Part shown: positions 32,716 through 64,000 of the stretch, piece by piece
Layout: each line of letters opens with the position of its first letter
Position numbering within the stretch: the stretch's first letter is position 1
Source of the DNA: Escherichia phage PECP20
Reading direction: 5' to 3' (one strand)
Sequence record: OQ873415.1
DNA length: 64,000 nucleotides
Made by a program: the position numbers and the translations under genes
The notes under the pieces: model-generated
The model's input: only the letters and a program-made list of their open reading frames with translations
Database searches by the model: none
What the model was told of the DNA's origin: nothing

Positions 32716-32723
32716 TATAAATA
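32716..32723 (+). promoter_or_regulatory. late promoter TATAAATA upstream of gene 53
   Basis: Exact TATAAATA about 40 nt upstream of start. Confidence 0.6.
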
Positions 32724-32765
32724 GTATTATTATTTATACCAATTTAATATTGGAAGGAGACTATT

Positions 32766-59721: not shown

Positions 59722-61290
59722 ATGACTACTATCAAAACTAAAGCTCAGCTCGTAGACAAATGGAAAGAACTGCTGGAAGGTGAAGGCCTGCCGGAAATCG
59801 CTAATAGCAAGCAGGCTATTATCGCTAAAATCTTCGAAAACCAGGAAAAAGATTTCGAAGTATCCCCTGAATATAAAGACGAGAAAATCGCTCAGGCATT
59901 TGGTTCTTTCTTGACCGAAGCTGAAATTGGTGGTGACCATGGTTATAATGCTCAGAACATCGCAGCAGGTCAAACCTCTGGTGCAGTAACCCAAATTGGG
60001 CCGGCCGTTATGGGTATGGTTCGTCGTGCTATTCCTAATCTGATCGCTTTTGATATTTGTGGTGTTCAGCCTATGAACAGCCCGACCGGTCAGGTATTTG
60101 CTCTCCGTGCAGTATATGGTAAAGACCCTATCGCTGCTGGCGCTAAAGAAGCTTTCCATCCGATGTATGCCCCAGACGCGATGTTCTCTGGTCAGGGTGC
60201 TGCTAAGAAATTCCCAGCTCTGGCTGCTGACACTACTACTGTTGTAGGTGATATCTATACTCACTTCTTCCAAGAAACTGGTACTGTATATCTGCAAGCT
60301 TCTGCTGTCGTAACACTTGATTCTGGTGCAACTGATGCAGCTAAATTAGATGCAGAAGTTAAGAAACAAATGGAAGCTGGTGCACTGGTAGAAATCGCTG
60401 AAGGTATGGCTACTTCTATCGCTGAACTCCAGGAAGGTTTCAACGGTTCTACCGATAACCCATGGAATGAAATGGGCTTCCGTATCGATAAACAAGTTAT
60501 CGAAGCTAAATCTCGCCAGCTGAAAGCTGCTTACTCTATCGAATTAGCACAAGACCTCCGTGCAGTACACGGTATGGATGCTGATGCTGAACTGAGCGGT
60601 ATTCTGGCTACAGAAATTATGCTAGAAATCAACCGTGAAGTTGTTGATTGGATTAACTACTCAGCACAGGTCGGTAAATCTGGTATGACCCTGACTCCTG
60701 GTTCTAAAGCTGGTGTATTTGACTTCCAGGACCCGATTGATATCCGTGGTGCTCGTTGGGCCGGTGAAAGCTTTAAATCTCTGTTGTTCCAGATTGATAA
60801 AGAAGCAGTTGAAATTGCTCGTCAAACCGGTCGTGGTGAAGGTAACTTCATTATCGCTTCCCGTAACGTAGTTAACGTACTGGCTTCAGTTGATACTGGT
60901 ATTTCTTACGCTGCACAGGGTCTGGCTTCCGGTTTTAATACCGACACTACTAAGTCTGTATTTGCCGGTGTACTTGGTGGTAAATACCGCGTATACATCG
61001 ACCAGTATGCTAAACAGGATTACTTCACCGTTGGTTACAAAGGCGCTAACGAAATGGATGCAGGTATCTACTATGCTCCTTACGTTGCACTTACCCCACT
61101 GCGTGGTTCCGATCCTAAGAACTTCCAGCCGGTAATGGGCTTTAAAACTCGTTACGGTATCGGTGTTAACCCGTTTGCTGAAAGTTCCCTGCAGGCTCCA
61201 GGTGCTCGCATCCAGTCCGGTATGCCGTCTATCCTGAACAGCCTTGGTAAGAACGCTTACTTCCGCCGTGTATATGTAAAAGGCATCTAA
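59722..61290 (+). CDS. 23: major capsid protein gp23
   Basis: 522 aa, very close to T4 gp23 as recalled (MTTIKTKAQLVDKWKELLEGEGLPEIANSKQAIIAKIFENQ...). Confidence 0.97.
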   Translation: MTTIKTKAQLVDKWKELLEGEGLPEIANSKQAIIAKIFENQEKDFEVSPEYKDEKIAQAFGSFLTEAEIGGDHGYNAQNIAAGQTSGAVTQIGPAVMGMVRRAIPNLIAFDICGVQPMNSPTGQVFALRAVYGKDPIAAGAKEAFHPMYAPDAMFSGQGAAKKFPALAADTTTVVGDIYTHFFQETGTVYLQASAVVTLDSGATDAAKLDAEVKKQMEAGALVEIAEGMATSIAELQEGFNGSTDNPWNEMGFRIDKQVIEAKSRQLKAAYSIELAQDLRAVHGMDADAELSGILATEIMLEINREVVDWINYSAQVGKSGMTLTPGSKAGVFDFQDPIDIRGARWAGESFKSLLFQIDKEAVEIARQTGRGEGNFIIASRNVVNVLASVDTGISYAAQGLASGFNTDTTKSVFAGVLGGKYRVYIDQYAKQDYFTVGYKGANEMDAGIYYAPYVALTPLRGSDPKNFQPVMGFKTRYGIGVNPFAESSLQAPGARIQSGMPSILNSLGKNAYFRRVYVKGI

Positions 61291-61314
61291 TCTTAATTGA
61301 TTAAATCTTATTTT

Positions 61315-61344
61315 GGGAGACTTCGGTCTCCCATTTTTGGTTTT
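61315..61344 (+). terminator. rho-independent terminator after gene 23
   Basis: GGGAGAC-UUCG-GUCUCCC then AUUUUUGGUUUU. Confidence 0.65.
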
Positions 61345-61612
61345 ATTTCTGTGCAATTTCGATGTAAGTTTTCAAAATATTTTGCCAATTAGGCATACCT
61401 TCTTGGACATATGCTGGAGAACCATCTTTGTTTTTGAATGATGCAAGTTTATCAGTGGCCCAATAGCCTTTAGCTCGAGCTTCAGAATCAACTTTCATCC
61501 ATACTTTGTTGAAGGCATTACCATTAACTTTTGCACCGTATTTTTCTACTAACTTAACTGCTTCAGCTTCCAGAACTTTTAAAGTATCTCGTAAGAAACG
61601 TGCTTTAGTCAT
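61343..61612 (-). CDS. hypothetical protein, 89 aa, opposite strand between genes 23 and 24
   Basis: ORF track; GAGGAG RBS; early-promoter cassette upstream on minus strand. Confidence 0.6.
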   Translation of the reverse strand: MTKARFLRDTLKVLEAEAVKLVEKYGAKVNGNAFNKVWMKVDSEARAKGYWATDKLASFKNKDGSPAYVQEGMPNWQNILKTYIEIAQK

Positions 61613-61631
61613 TTTGTTTACTCCTCTGTAG

Positions 61632-61673
61632 TTGATAAGTCTATAGTATCACATACCAAATACGTTGTAAACA
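61632..61673 (-). promoter_or_regulatory. early promoter cassette driving the antisense ORF between genes 23 and 24
   Basis: Plus strand gttgataagtctatagtatcacataccaaatacgttgtaaac. Confidence 0.55.
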
Positions 61674-61678
61674 ATCTT

Positions 61679-61686
61679 TATAAATA
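61679..61686 (+). promoter_or_regulatory. late promoter TATAAATA upstream of gene 24
   Basis: Exact TATAAATA about 25 nt before start. Confidence 0.65.
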
Positions 61687-61713
61687 ATCTATATCACATA
61701 AGGAAAAAATGCA

Positions 61714-62997
61714 ATGAGTAAAATCCAAAAATTATTGCGTGAATCTACAACGTCTACTAGCAACTCAATCGGTCGCCCAAATCTCGTTGCTTTGACTCGC
61801 GCTACGACTAAATTAATATATTCTGACATTGTAGCAACACAAAGAACTAATCAACCTGTTGCTGCTTTTTATGGTATTAAATATCTTAACCCAGACAACG
61901 AATTAACGTTTAAAACTGGTGCTACTTATGCAGGTGAAGCTGGATATGTAGACCGAGAAAAAATTACCGAGCTCACAGAAGAATCAAAAGTCACACTAAA
62001 TAAAGGCGATTTTTTCAAATATAATAATATCGTCTATAAAGTGCTAGAAGATACACCATTTGCAGATATTCAAGAAAGTGATCTAGAATTAGCTCTTCAG
62101 ATTGCAGTTGTTCATTTAAAGGTACGGTTATTTTCAGATGCAGCGGTGACAAGCAAATTTGAAAGCTCCGGTAGCGAAATTTCCGATGCAAGATTCCAAA
62201 TTAATAAATGGCAAACTTCAGTCAAATCTCGTAAACTTAAAACCGGTCTCACGGTTGAATTAGCGCAAGATTTGGAAGCGAATGGATTTGATGCCCCTAA
62301 CTTCTTAGAAGATTTGCTTGCTACTGAAATGGCTGATGAAATTAATAAAGATATTCTTCAGTCTTTAATTACGGTATCGAAACGTTATAAAGTTACTGGA
62401 ATTACTGACACCGGATTTATTGACTTGAGCTATGCATCCGCTCCAGAAGCAGGTCGTTCGTTATATCGAATGGTGTGTGAAATGGTATCACACATTCAAA
62501 AAGAGTCAACTTATACTGCGACGTTTTGTGTAGCTTCAGCTCGTGCAGCTGCTATTCTTGCTGCTTCAGGTTGGTTAAAACATAAACCAGAAGATGATAA
62601 GTATCTTTCACAAAATGCTTACGGGTTCTTAGCTAATGGTTTACCGCTTTATTGCGATACTAACAGTCCATTAGATTATGTGATCGTTGGCGTAGTAGAA
62701 AATATCGGTGAAAAAGAAATTGTTGGATCAATTTTCTATGCCCCGTATACAGAAGGTCTCGACTTAGATGACCCTGAACATGTTGGTGCATTTAAAGTTG
62801 TAGTTGATCCAGAAAGCTTGCAACCGTCTATTGGTTTATTGGTTAGATACGCTTTATCAGCAAATCCTTACACAGTAGCAAAAGACGAAAAAGAAGCGAG
62901 AATAATTGATGGCGGGGACATGGATAAAATGGCAGGACGTTCAGACTTGTCTGTTTTACTTGGTGTTAAATTGCCTAAAATTATTATAGATGAATGA
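61714..62997 (+). CDS. 24: capsid vertex protein gp24
   Basis: 427 aa; gp23-like fold segments; late promoter TATAAATA upstream. Confidence 0.93.
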   Translation: MSKIQKLLRESTTSTSNSIGRPNLVALTRATTKLIYSDIVATQRTNQPVAAFYGIKYLNPDNELTFKTGATYAGEAGYVDREKITELTEESKVTLNKGDFFKYNNIVYKVLEDTPFADIQESDLELALQIAVVHLKVRLFSDAAVTSKFESSGSEISDARFQINKWQTSVKSRKLKTGLTVELAQDLEANGFDAPNFLEDLLATEMADEINKDILQSLITVSKRYKVTGITDTGFIDLSYASAPEAGRSLYRMVCEMVSHIQKESTYTATFCVASARAAAILAASGWLKHKPEDDKYLSQNAYGFLANGLPLYCDTNSPLDYVIVGVVENIGEKEIVGSIFYAPYTEGLDLDDPEHVGAFKVVVDPESLQPSIGLLVRYALSANPYTVAKDEKEARIIDGGDMDKMAGRSDLSVLLGVKLPKIIIDE

Positions 62998-63029: not shown

Positions 63030-64000
63030 TTATGATACTAATTCAATCCATGCAGGACGCAGAACATCTTGCACCATTCGGACTAATTCTTTCTTAACAA
63101 GATTCGGATTATCAGATGATGTTAATACAATGCCTTCACGAGAAGTTTCTTCCAGAATATCTTGAACAGTCAATCCCATCACTTTGCCAAAATCTTTCGG
63201 AGTTACTGTCCCAATCTTAGAAATCACATTGTTAACACGATTTAATGTAACATAACAAGCTAGAACATCAAGCAAGTTTTTGTCAATTTCGGTTAATGGA
63301 ACCTGAGTTTTAATAGGCTTATCAGACTTTTTCTTTTCACTGAATTTAGAGTTCTTGCACTTAATCGCTACACGAGTACCGTTTGGCAGCCATTTAGGGA
63401 AACAAGGCTTCAGAACATAACCTTCTGCGGTATTATCACCAATAACATTAGCATCAAATACGCAATTATTTGCTTCTACAAGGTCTTCCGATGCCGTAGC
63501 GTTATAAGCGGCTAAGACGGAATCAAGGTCGTTTTGAATCGTGATAAGAGCATCAAATGTTCCACGTCCAAGCATTGGTGCCATTTTAAAACCAAACGTA
63601 TTACAGAAATCTTGCATTTCGTAATCACTCATGTAATAAGTATCACCGCTTTCCGTGTTTATGATGATATCGAATACATAGAAATCTTTTTCACCGTAGT
63701 CAACACCTTTCTGAATTCCACCACCAGCGAATTCACCAAAGACTTGATATGTCACCGGCACTGAAGTTGAAATACTGTCCATGACTTCTTGAACACCTTT
63801 AATAGCCTTATCATACTTCTTGAGTACGATTTCATAACCATAAAAATCTTCTGCTGGAAGAATAGGGCCTGTGCGCTTGGCGCATGTGACGTTGTCACGT
63901 TCAATTATTAACGAGAAGTTGGTCCCATGGATTTTCTCACGTGCTACCCAAACACCAGTAGTCAAACCATTAGTGTAGAGTTTTTCAATAAACTTAGAGT
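63030..64000 (-). CDS. rnlB: RNA ligase 2, C-terminal part; gene start lies beyond the window end
   Basis: Translation continues in frame to the window edge (...[35 protein letters not shown]...), matching T4 Rnl2 as recalled, including the KIHG ligase motif. Confidence 0.85.

What the first reader, a model, noticed from the sequence alone, without database searches (positions are those of the whole stretch)
61343..61612. Early-promoter-driven ORF on the opposite strand inside the late capsid module
An 89-aa ORF sits between genes 23 and 24 on the minus strand with its own GAGGAG RBS and an early promoter cassette (61632-61673) that overlaps the gene 24 late promoter region. T4 carries a different gene (segD, as I recall) at this junction. 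A small early gene embedded here is a typical site for mobile or accessory insertions.
Basis: partly seen in the sequence, partly recalled or inferred. Interest (0 to 1): 0.35.

Follow-up and report, generated by a model that had tools for sequence, protein, structure and literature searches.

The report
Small early accessory gene between capsid genes
A real, conserved but uncharacterised 89-residue early phage gene (the RB69ORF188c family) sits with its own early promoter in a swappable slot between capsid genes 23 and 24, the slot where T4 carries the homing endonuclease segD; it is already annotated as hypothetical and is ordinary in kind.

Summary
An 89-aa ORF (61343-61612, minus strand) lies between gene 23 and gene 24 of a Mosigvirus (RB69-like) genome. 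It has a GAGGAG RBS and a T4-type early promoter (GTTTACA, 17 nt, TACTAT), placed back-to-back with the gene 24 late promoter TATAAATA.

It is a real gene. Non-saturated pairs give dN/dS of 0.04-0.18. It matches PHROG 6003 over its full length and is annotated "similar to RB69ORF188c".

It is not a recent, lineage-private insertion. Homologues at 30-37% identity occupy the same slot in Dhakavirus and Gaprivervirus. More distant ones occur as stem-loop-flanked units in Vequintavirinae-like and Klebsiella JD001-like phages.

The slot itself is plastic:
- It is empty in most Tequatrovirus genomes and in Karamvirus, Marfavirus and a Klebsiella T4-like phage. There it spans 87-96 nt and has no early promoter.
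- It holds promoter+ORF in this window.
- It holds promoter+ORF+segD in LF82-1 and JM10.
- It holds promoter+segD in T4 and in a Winklervirus.

LF82-1 is about 98% identical to the window in genes 23 and 24. Its ORF has been replaced by a Dhakavirus-type allele plus segD, with breakpoints at the RBS and at the terminator hairpin.

Function is unknown. There is no Pfam, NCBIfam, PDB or Foldseek relative, although the two AF2 models are confident. The protein is basic (pI about 9.6). It most likely acts as a dispensable host-takeover or counter-defence factor.

The parts
59722..61290 (+). Gene 23 (major capsid protein). This is the left flank of the slot.
   Evidence: 522-aa ORF. Annotated as major head protein in PhAPEC2.
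61314..61333 (+). G+C-rich hairpin GGGAGAC-TTCG-GTCTCCC followed by a T-run. It is the gene 23 terminator and the 3' boundary of the ORF cassette. On the ORF strand it is followed by AAAATAAG, so it makes a poor terminator in that direction.
   Evidence: Terminator scan. The same hairpin is present in LF82-1, WG01 and Vettismorki and coincides with the right-hand recombination breakpoint.
61343..61612 (-). 89-aa ORF (stop codon included), RB69ORF188c / PHROG 6003 family. The product is a basic, soluble alpha/beta protein of unknown function.
   Evidence: dN/dS of 0.04-0.18 and pI 9.6. AF2 pLDDT 88.9.
61621..61626 (-). Shine-Dalgarno GAGGAG, 8 nt upstream of the ATG. It is also the left-hand breakpoint of the allele swap seen in LF82-1.
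   Evidence: Sequence. Junction comparison.
61643..61672 (-). T4-type early (sigma-70) promoter: GTTTACA (-35), 17-nt spacer, TG-extended TACTAT (-10). The inferred transcription start is near 61636.
   Evidence: It matches the published T-even consensus TTTACW-N17-TAYWAT (PMC4122927) and GTTTAC at -36 to -31 (PMC1524935). A positionally equivalent promoter lies upstream of T4 segD.
61679..61686 (+). Late promoter TATAAATA of gene 24. It is divergent from the early promoter and lies in its UP-element zone. The inferred late start is near 61692.
   Evidence: Consensus from PMC1524935. It is conserved in both empty and occupied junctions.
61714..62997 (+). Gene 24 (capsid vertex protein). This is the right flank of the slot.

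Best explanation
What it is. The ORF is a genuine, non-essential early accessory gene of the RB69ORF188c / PHROG 6003 family. It is carried as a compact unit of early promoter, RBS and ORF, followed by the gene 23 terminator hairpin. This unit lies between the gene 24 late promoter and that hairpin.

How it is expressed (inferred). In the first minutes of infection, host sigma-70 RNA polymerase starts at about 61636 and transcribes the 270-nt gene away from gene 24. Later the neighbouring TATAAATA box drives gene 24 in the opposite direction.

What the product is. It is an 89-aa, basic (pI about 9.6), cytoplasmic protein with helix-helix-beta-hairpin-helix topology. It has an invariant polar cluster: K3, N30-G31-N32, N35 and Q70.

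What it most likely does (inferred, no direct evidence). It most likely acts stoichiometrically, binding a host macromolecule as a host-takeover or counter-defence factor.

How the slot evolves. The slot is a recombination cassette site. The conserved promoter/RBS and the hairpin serve as portable homology, so the cargo can be the ORF, the ORF plus segD, or segD alone.

Confidence by step:
- Real protein-coding gene: about 0.95.
- Early transcription from this promoter: about 0.8.
- Exchangeable cassette slot: about 0.85.
- Host-takeover or anti-defence binding function: about 0.35.
For: Coding and conservation:
- Full-length PHROG 6003 match, E = 2e-45.
- 239 phage records carry a homologue.
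- Syntenic homologues occur in Dhakavirus, Gaprivervirus and metagenomic T4-like contigs.
- dN/dS is 0.04-0.18 and the basic pI is conserved.

Promoter:
- Searches identify it.
- T4 segD has a TTTACA-17-TATTAT promoter at the equivalent position.
- In T4, segD RNA is classed as early and the protein is detected by mass spectrometry (PMC9697503 supplements).

Insertion status:
- Four empty junctions of 87-96 nt lack any early promoter.
- Most Tequatrovirus records span 860 nt where the window spans 1200 nt.

Cassette exchange:
- LF82-1 is 98.3% and 97.4% identical to the window in genes 23 and 24.
- Its ORF is replaced by a Dhakavirus-type allele (88% nt identity to WG01) plus segD.
- The breakpoints are at GAGGAG and at the hairpin.

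Autonomy:
- In a Klebsiella JD001-like contig the homologue has its own terminator, TTGACG-17-TATACT promoter, RBS and downstream hairpin.
- In Vequintavirinae-like phages it is bracketed by hairpins.

Dispensability:
- It is frameshifted or truncated in phages mogra and 310Ecol104PP.
- It is absent from genera with an empty slot.

It is not flagged as a virion protein in the PhAPEC2 annotation.
Against: - No experiment or homology bears on the biochemical function. Pfam, NCBIfam, PDB sequence search and Foldseek all gave nothing.
- No transcript map exists for a Mosigvirus. Early timing is inferred from promoter class and from T4 segD.
- The hairpin lacks a U-tract on the ORF strand, so where the transcript ends is uncertain.
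- The T4 and window promoters could resemble each other only because all T-even early promoters share a long consensus.
Confidence: 0.7

Rival explanations
1. The ORF is functionally tied to the SegD homing endonuclease. It would be the resident 'exon' of a SegD homing site, or a partner or regulator of SegD. It would then be maintained and spread mainly by co-conversion with segD rather than for a host-directed function.
For: - In LF82-1, JM10, 04086 and about 38 records in all, a SegD-like gene starts 3 nt after the ORF stop codon with no Shine-Dalgarno of its own. This suggests translational coupling.
- ORF plus segD were transferred together into a Mosigvirus backbone.
- T4 and Vettismorki carry segD behind the same kind of promoter at the same place.
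Against: - About 200 of 239 ORF-bearing genomes have no segD in the slot.
- Homologues in Vequintavirinae-like phages have no adjacent endonuclease. In the JD001-like contig the nearest endonuclease-like gene is about 2.3 kb away.
- T4 and Vettismorki SegD exist without the ORF.
- Strong purifying selection acts on the ORF in lineages without segD.
Confidence: 0.15
2. The meaningful product is RNA, not protein. The early promoter would exist to make an antisense ('anti-late') transcript running through the weak hairpin into gene 23, or to occlude the gene 24 late promoter early in infection. The ORF would be incidental.
For: - The hairpin has its T-run on the gene 23 strand only, so read-through into antisense gene 23 is plausible.
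- The promoter lies 6 bp from the late promoter box.
- The promoter is retained whatever the cargo is.
Against: - dN/dS of 0.04-0.18, conserved length of 83-93 aa, a conserved strong RBS and invariant residues across three phage lineages all show selection on the protein.
- No Rfam family reaches threshold.
- Genomes with an empty slot manage without any such promoter.
Confidence: 0.05
3. This is the first reader's reading: a recent mobile or accessory insertion peculiar to this phage.
For: The slot is empty in most T4-like genera, and segD occupies it in T4.
Against: - The same family occupies the same slot in three genera at only 30-37% identity, so the divergence in place is deep.
- GC is 35.6% and GC3 is 0.24, the same as neighbouring gene 24 (GC3 0.24), so the gene is compositionally ameliorated.
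- 120 near-identical Mosigvirus records carry it.
Confidence: 0.05

Closest known systems
RB69ORF188c (NP_861878.1) / PHROG 6003, annotated 'hypothetical protein' in Mosigvirus genomes
   Same: Full-length match (PHROG E = 2e-45, positions 1-89 of the protein against 1-90 of a 90-position profile). Same position and strand between genes 23 and 24. The PhAPEC2 annotation names RB69ORF188c explicitly.
   Different: Nothing substantive. The window copy is 99-100% identical to many deposited copies. The family has no assigned function.
PeSL (promoter-early stem-loop) cassettes of T4-type phages (Arbiol et al. 2010, PMC2839356; Comeau et al. 2014, PMC4122927)
   Same: - The promoter fits the published T4/PST PeSL consensus TTTACW-N17-TAYWAT.
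- It has an AT-rich upstream region, an SD and a start codon.
- The cargo is a small ORF of unknown function.
- The exchange breakpoints fall in the regulatory elements.
   Different: - In a canonical PeSL the stem-loop lies immediately upstream of the promoter, and PeSLs cluster in hyperplastic early regions.
- Here the promoter is preceded by a late promoter.
- The only stem-loop is downstream of the ORF and doubles as the gene 23 terminator.
- The unit sits inside the conserved structural module, where the authors say PeSLs are infrequent.
T4 segD locus (free-standing GIY-YIG homing endonuclease between genes 23 and 24)
   Same: Same slot, same strand, the same kind of promoter at the same distance from the TATAAATA box, and the same terminator hairpin downstream. 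In some phages segD directly follows this ORF.
   Different: The ORF product has no GIY-YIG domain or any other nuclease domain and shows no similarity to SegD. T4 lacks any homologue of the ORF.
Phage 'morons' (autonomous promoter-ORF-terminator units inserted between genes of a late operon)
   Same: It has its own promoter and a downstream hairpin. It is absent from the same junction in related genomes. It is dispensable and occurs in unrelated phage lineages.
   Different: Classical morons are described in temperate phages, are expressed from the prophage, and often differ in base composition. Here the phage is virulent, expression is inferred to be early-lytic, and the composition is native.

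Membership tests
RB69ORF188c / PHROG 6003 | Full-length profile match | tested here: met
   E = 2.1e-45, residues 1-89 against profile positions 1-90 of 90.
RB69ORF188c / PHROG 6003 | Syntenic position between genes 23 and 24 on the opposite strand | tested here: met
   PhAPEC2, VR20, WG01, 04086 and metagenomic contigs.
T4-type early promoter | GTTTAC(W) at -35, 17-nt spacer, TAYWAT at -10, A-rich region at -40 to -44 | tested here: met
   GTTTACA-17-TACTAT with AAA at -41 to -43. Consensus from PMC1524935 and PMC4122927.
T4-type early promoter | Mapped early 5' end or early RNA kinetics | not testable with these tools
   There is indirect support only. T4 segD, behind the equivalent promoter, gives early-class RNA.
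PeSL element | Stem-loop immediately upstream of the early promoter | tested here: not met
   Upstream of the -35 lies TATTTATAAAGATT, which is the late promoter. There is no hairpin there. The hairpin is downstream of the ORF.
PeSL element | Association with indels or replacements whose breakpoints lie in the regulatory motifs | tested here: met
   The LF82-1 swap has breakpoints at the RBS and at the hairpin.
GIY-YIG homing endonuclease (Seg family) | GIY-YIG catalytic domain plus a DNA-binding domain, about 200-250 aa | tested here: not met
   89 aa with no Pfam or NCBIfam hit.
Moron | Own promoter, plus absence from the same site in related genomes | tested here: met
Moron | Own downstream factor-independent terminator | tested here: inconclusive
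   A hairpin is present, but its T-run is on the gene 23 strand only. The VR20 homologue does have a T-run on the ORF strand.
Moron | Atypical base composition | tested here: not met
   GC is 35.6% against 38.2% for the window. GC3 is 0.244 against 0.238 for gene 24.
Winged-helix DNA-binding fold (a lead from the first Foldseek run) | Significant structural superposition on winged-helix domains | tested here: not met
   The best hits had E about 0.5, TM 0.25 and rmsd 9-11 A. They did not recur with a second model of pLDDT 93.
Pfam DUF4859 | Score above the gathering threshold (22.6 bits) | tested here: not met
   17.9 bits, and only 1 of 12 family members hit it.

The most novel reading that the evidence does not exclude
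The family would be a previously unrecognised host-takeover or counter-defence effector with a fold unlike any solved structure. It would spread as a self-contained promoter-ORF-hairpin unit among three unrelated groups of enterobacterial phages: T-even Mosig/Dhaka/Gaprivervirus, Vequintavirinae-like phages, and Klebsiella JD001-like phages. In T-evens it would serve as the beneficial cargo that SegD-type endonucleases hitch onto and co-convert. That could help explain why T4 SegD, stranded without the ORF, is reported not to home (my recollection of Sokolov et al. 2018; the paper could not be read here).
Probability: 0.25. Interest if true: 0.5.

Novelty: new member of a known kind. Interest (0 to 1): 0.25.

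Why it matters
This is of modest importance. The gene itself is already catalogued as a hypothetical protein. Three points may be useful:

1. The 23/24 junction is a defined cassette slot. Its four states (empty, ORF, ORF+segD, segD) all use the same early promoter position and terminator hairpin. That makes it a natural system for studying how accessory genes and homing endonucleases enter the conserved capsid module.

2. T4 segD, which a 2010 review said lacked a promoter, has a good early-type promoter homologous in position to this one. This agrees with later omics data.

3. A recent screen of early proteins in a Mosigvirus chose candidates by T4 homology. It therefore could not include this ORF, so the ORF remains an untested early gene with a confident predicted fold of unknown type.

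Tried and rejected
- **Domain and sequence searches.** Pfam, NCBIfam and PDB sequence searches gave nothing above threshold.
- **DUF4859.** The weak hit (17.9 bits) was seen in 1 of 12 members and is rejected as chance.
- **Exhaustive HMM search.** The search of 1.84 billion representatives gave nine proteins at E <= 0.001. Six are genuine small homologues. P0022 and P0024 are long repetitive Ig-like-domain proteins (Big_2; Filamin) whose scores add up over repeats, so they are spurious. P0020 is a chimeric ENA protein containing a fragment of the Dhakavirus-type allele.
- **Foldseek.** Two confident models (pLDDT 88.9 and 93.2) gave no PDB hit with E < 0.1. The winged-helix-like top hits of the first run did not recur and are dropped. 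BFVD returned only a family member.
- **Rfam.** The scan of 61200-61800 found nothing near gathering scores.
- **Middle promoter.** No MotA box (TGCTT) lies upstream of the ORF (read).
- **Literature.** 'ORF188c' occurs in one paper, and only for other phages' ORFs. The AV110 early-protein screen did not include this gene. Sokolov et al. 2018 on SegD is not held, so the SegD cleavage site could not be placed relative to the ORF.

Full report
**Identity of the window and check of the observation**

The 601 bases around the finding are 99-99.7% identical to many Mosigvirus (RB69-like T-even) genomes, such as vB_EcoM_NBG1 and PhAPEC2.

The mechanical ORF list gives these genes:
- gp23 at 59722-61290 (+)
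- an 89-aa ATG ORF at 61343-61612 (-)
- gp24 at 61714-62997 (+)
- RNA ligase 2 at 63030-63965 (-)

GAGGAG lies at 61621-61626 on the minus strand, 8 nt before the ATG.

The consensus scan finds a single promoter-like site in 61200-61800. It is TTTACA, 17 nt, TACTAT with an upstream TG, on the minus strand at 61671-61643. The same scan finds a terminator hairpin at 61314-61333 on the plus strand.

The phage-specific pattern GTTTAC-N17-19-TAYWNT occurs 16 times in the window, against 0.8 expected by chance. Fourteen matches are on the minus strand, thirteen of them between 2.7 and 29.3 kb. The site at 61643-61672 is the only minus-strand match in the late-gene half.

TATAAATA lies at 61679-61686 on the plus strand. 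From the published positions of these boxes, I infer divergent starts near 61636 (early) and 61692 (late), about 56 bp apart.

All descriptive elements of the finding are therefore confirmed. One nuance applies. The late box lies in the UP-element zone of the early promoter rather than overlapping its hexamers.

**Is it a gene?**

The product matches PHROG 6003 (unknown function) end to end, E = 2e-45. The PhAPEC2 record annotates the same ORF as "similar to RB69ORF188c (NP_861878.1)".

tblastn finds it in 239 phage records. Of these, 120 are at 80% identity or more and 119 are below 60%.

The divergent copies (30-37% identity) sit in exactly the same place, between genes 23 and 24 on the opposite strand. 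This holds in Gaprivervirus VR20, Dhakavirus WG01 and 04086, and metagenomic T4-like contigs.

Nei-Gojobori estimates for pairs that are not saturated give dN/dS of 0.04-0.18. All but one of the twelve members analysed have pI 9.3-9.8 (P0021: 8.0). The protein is clearly under purifying selection.

**What is known about the protein**

No Pfam or NCBIfam model reaches threshold, and no PDB sequence is related.

An exhaustive HMM search of 1.84 billion representatives returned nine proteins at E <= 0.001.
- Six are genuine small homologues.
- Two are long repetitive Ig-like-domain proteins (Big_2; Filamin) and are spurious.
- One is a chimeric ENA protein.

Two AF2 models gave the same topology of long helix, helix, beta-hairpin, helix:
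- the window protein, pLDDT 88.9
- a Klebsiella-phage member, pLDDT 93.2

Foldseek found no PDB match better than E = 0.5. In BFVD it found only a family member.

Across 21 sequences from three subfamilies the invariant residues are M1, K3, F6, N-G-N, N(+3) and Q70 in window numbering. The biochemical function therefore cannot be assigned by homology.

**The slot**

The window was compared with other T4-like genomes across the 23/24 junction. I then read six occupied and four empty junctions. Four states emerged.

1. **Empty.** Seen in RB27, with the same 860-nt span in most sampled Tequatrovirus records, and in Karamvirus myPSH1140, Marfa and Klebsiella phage Roth04. The junction is 87-96 nt. 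It consists of the gene 24 RBS, TATTTATA (the late box read on the other strand), about 10-20 nt, and then the terminator hairpin. There is no early promoter.
2. **Early promoter plus small ORF.** Seen in the window, other Mosigvirus genomes, Dhakavirus and Gaprivervirus.
3. **Early promoter plus small ORF plus a SegD-like GIY-YIG gene.** The SegD-like gene starts 3 nt after the ORF stop codon. Seen in LF82-1, JM10 and 04086. About 38 records carry this SegD type.
4. **Early promoter plus segD alone.** Seen in T4, PST and the Winklervirus Vettismorki.

In every occupied state the -35 element begins a few bases after TATTTATA(AAG), and the cargo ends just before the hairpin.

T4 has TTTACA-17-TATTAT with TG, a 10 of 12 match, directly upstream of segD. 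A 2010 review stated that no segD-specific promoter could be found and that transcript levels were probably very low (PMC2988022). A 2022 dual-omics study instead classes segD RNA as early and detects the protein (PMC9697503 supplements). This is the best available indirect evidence that the equivalent promoter in the window fires early.

**Cassette exchange**

LF82-1 is 98.3% (gene 23) and 97.4% (gene 24) identical to the window, up to the RBS on one side and the hairpin on the other.

The window ORF has no nucleotide match in LF82-1. In its place is an 88-aa allele that is 88% nt identical to Dhakavirus WG01, followed by segD. The whole insert is 84% identical to Dhakavirus 04086.

The left junction is within or next to GAGGAG, and the right junction is in the GGGAGACCGAAGTCTCCC hairpin shared by both lineages.

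Conversely, P0006, a window-type allele at 62% identity, sits in a phage with the tandem gene 24 duplication typical of Dhakavirus and Gaprivervirus.

Alleles have therefore moved between backbones. The conserved regulatory elements are the plausible crossover points, which is the logic proposed for PeSL elements (PMC4122927). Co-conversion during SegD-initiated repair is an alternative route that I could not test.

**Distribution beyond T-evens**

More distant homologues occur in two other phage groups.
- **About 141-kb Vequintavirinae-like phages (ABPH49 and metagenomic contigs).** The gene lies inside long arrays of small unannotated ORFs and is bracketed by G+C-rich hairpins.
- **A roughly 46-50-kb contig related to Klebsiella JD001-like phages.** The gene follows the primase. 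It has its own upstream terminator, a TTGACG-17-TATACT promoter, an RBS and a downstream hairpin.

The gene thus behaves as a self-contained expression unit in three unrelated phage lineages of enterobacteria.

It is dispensable. It is frameshifted in phage mogra and truncated in 310Ecol104PP, and it is absent from genera with an empty slot.

Its base composition matches its neighbours. GC is 35.6%, and GC3 is 0.244 against 0.238 for gene 24. This argues against recent acquisition in this lineage.

**Interpretation**

- **Shown:** a real, conserved, basic small protein gene; a phage-typical early promoter and RBS; an insertion relative to the empty junction; alternative cargoes; and at least one clean replacement.
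- **Inferred:** early transcription by host sigma-70 polymerase; termination or partial read-through at the shared hairpin; and exchange by recombination in the regulatory elements.
- **Guessed:** the protein is a non-essential host-takeover or counter-defence factor that works by binding a host macromolecule. This rests on its size, charge, early timing, dispensability and moron-like spread, and I put it at about 0.35.

Rivals are a functional link to SegD (0.15), an RNA-level role of the promoter (0.05) and a recent private insertion (0.05).

**Comparison with known things and verdict**

The gene is a member of the RB69ORF188c / PHROG 6003 family, and both membership tests were met.

The cassette works like a PeSL-bounded module or a moron, but it fails one defining feature of each:
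- There is no stem-loop upstream of the promoter.
- There is no atypical base composition, and the terminator on the ORF strand is doubtful.

It is not a homing endonuclease.

Interest is modest at 0.25.

Noticed in passing
L009 2454-2482 (T4 NC_000866 about 107253-107281, minus strand): T4 segD has a sigma-70/early-type promoter (TTTACA-17-TATTAT, TG-extended, 10 of 12 match) directly upstream. A 2010 review stated that no segD-specific promoter could be found. 2022 omics data class segD RNA as early.
   Followed up: partly
L002 330-2894; L003 336-2899; L021 337-2901; L016 2338-4897: Dhakavirus, Gaprivervirus and related metagenomic phages carry two tandem copies of gene 24 (capsid vertex protein). 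The window and T4 have one copy.
   Followed up: no
L011 1596-1688 (Erwinia phage Vettismorki): The annotated 30-aa 'hypothetical protein' upstream of the SegD-like gene overlaps the early promoter and late promoter boxes. It is probably a spurious gene call.
   Followed up: partly
window 32716-32723 (+) and 32731-32738 (-): Two TATAAATA late-promoter boxes lie on opposite strands only 7 bp apart.
   Followed up: no
window 2716-29252, minus strand: Thirteen matches to the T-even early promoter pattern, all on the minus strand, mark the early region of this genome.
   Followed up: no
GenBank MG010123.1 (H204): A 32-kb record named 'Staphylococcus phage SAJK-IND' carries T4-like genes 23 and 24 at 86% identity to the window. 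It is probably mislabelled or a contaminant.
   Followed up: no
P0006, P0020: JGI names the 90-aa homologue P0006 'NADPH-dependent curcumin reductase CurA', an obvious mis-annotation. P0020 (160 aa, ENA) is a chimera with a fragment matching the Dhakavirus-type allele fused to unrelated sequence.
   Followed up: partly
L014 2776-3681: In the Klebsiella JD001-like contig, a 301-aa protein with T5orf172, MUG113, DUF723 and CapR hits (a GIY-YIG-like, homing-endonuclease-like protein) lies just upstream of the primase gene that precedes the ORF homologue.
   Followed up: no
MH533020.1 (L007): The record named Acinetobacter phage ABPH49 is classified in Vequintavirinae, and its ORF homologue is 97% identical to one on a metagenomic contig. 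I did not check its host assignment.
   Followed up: no
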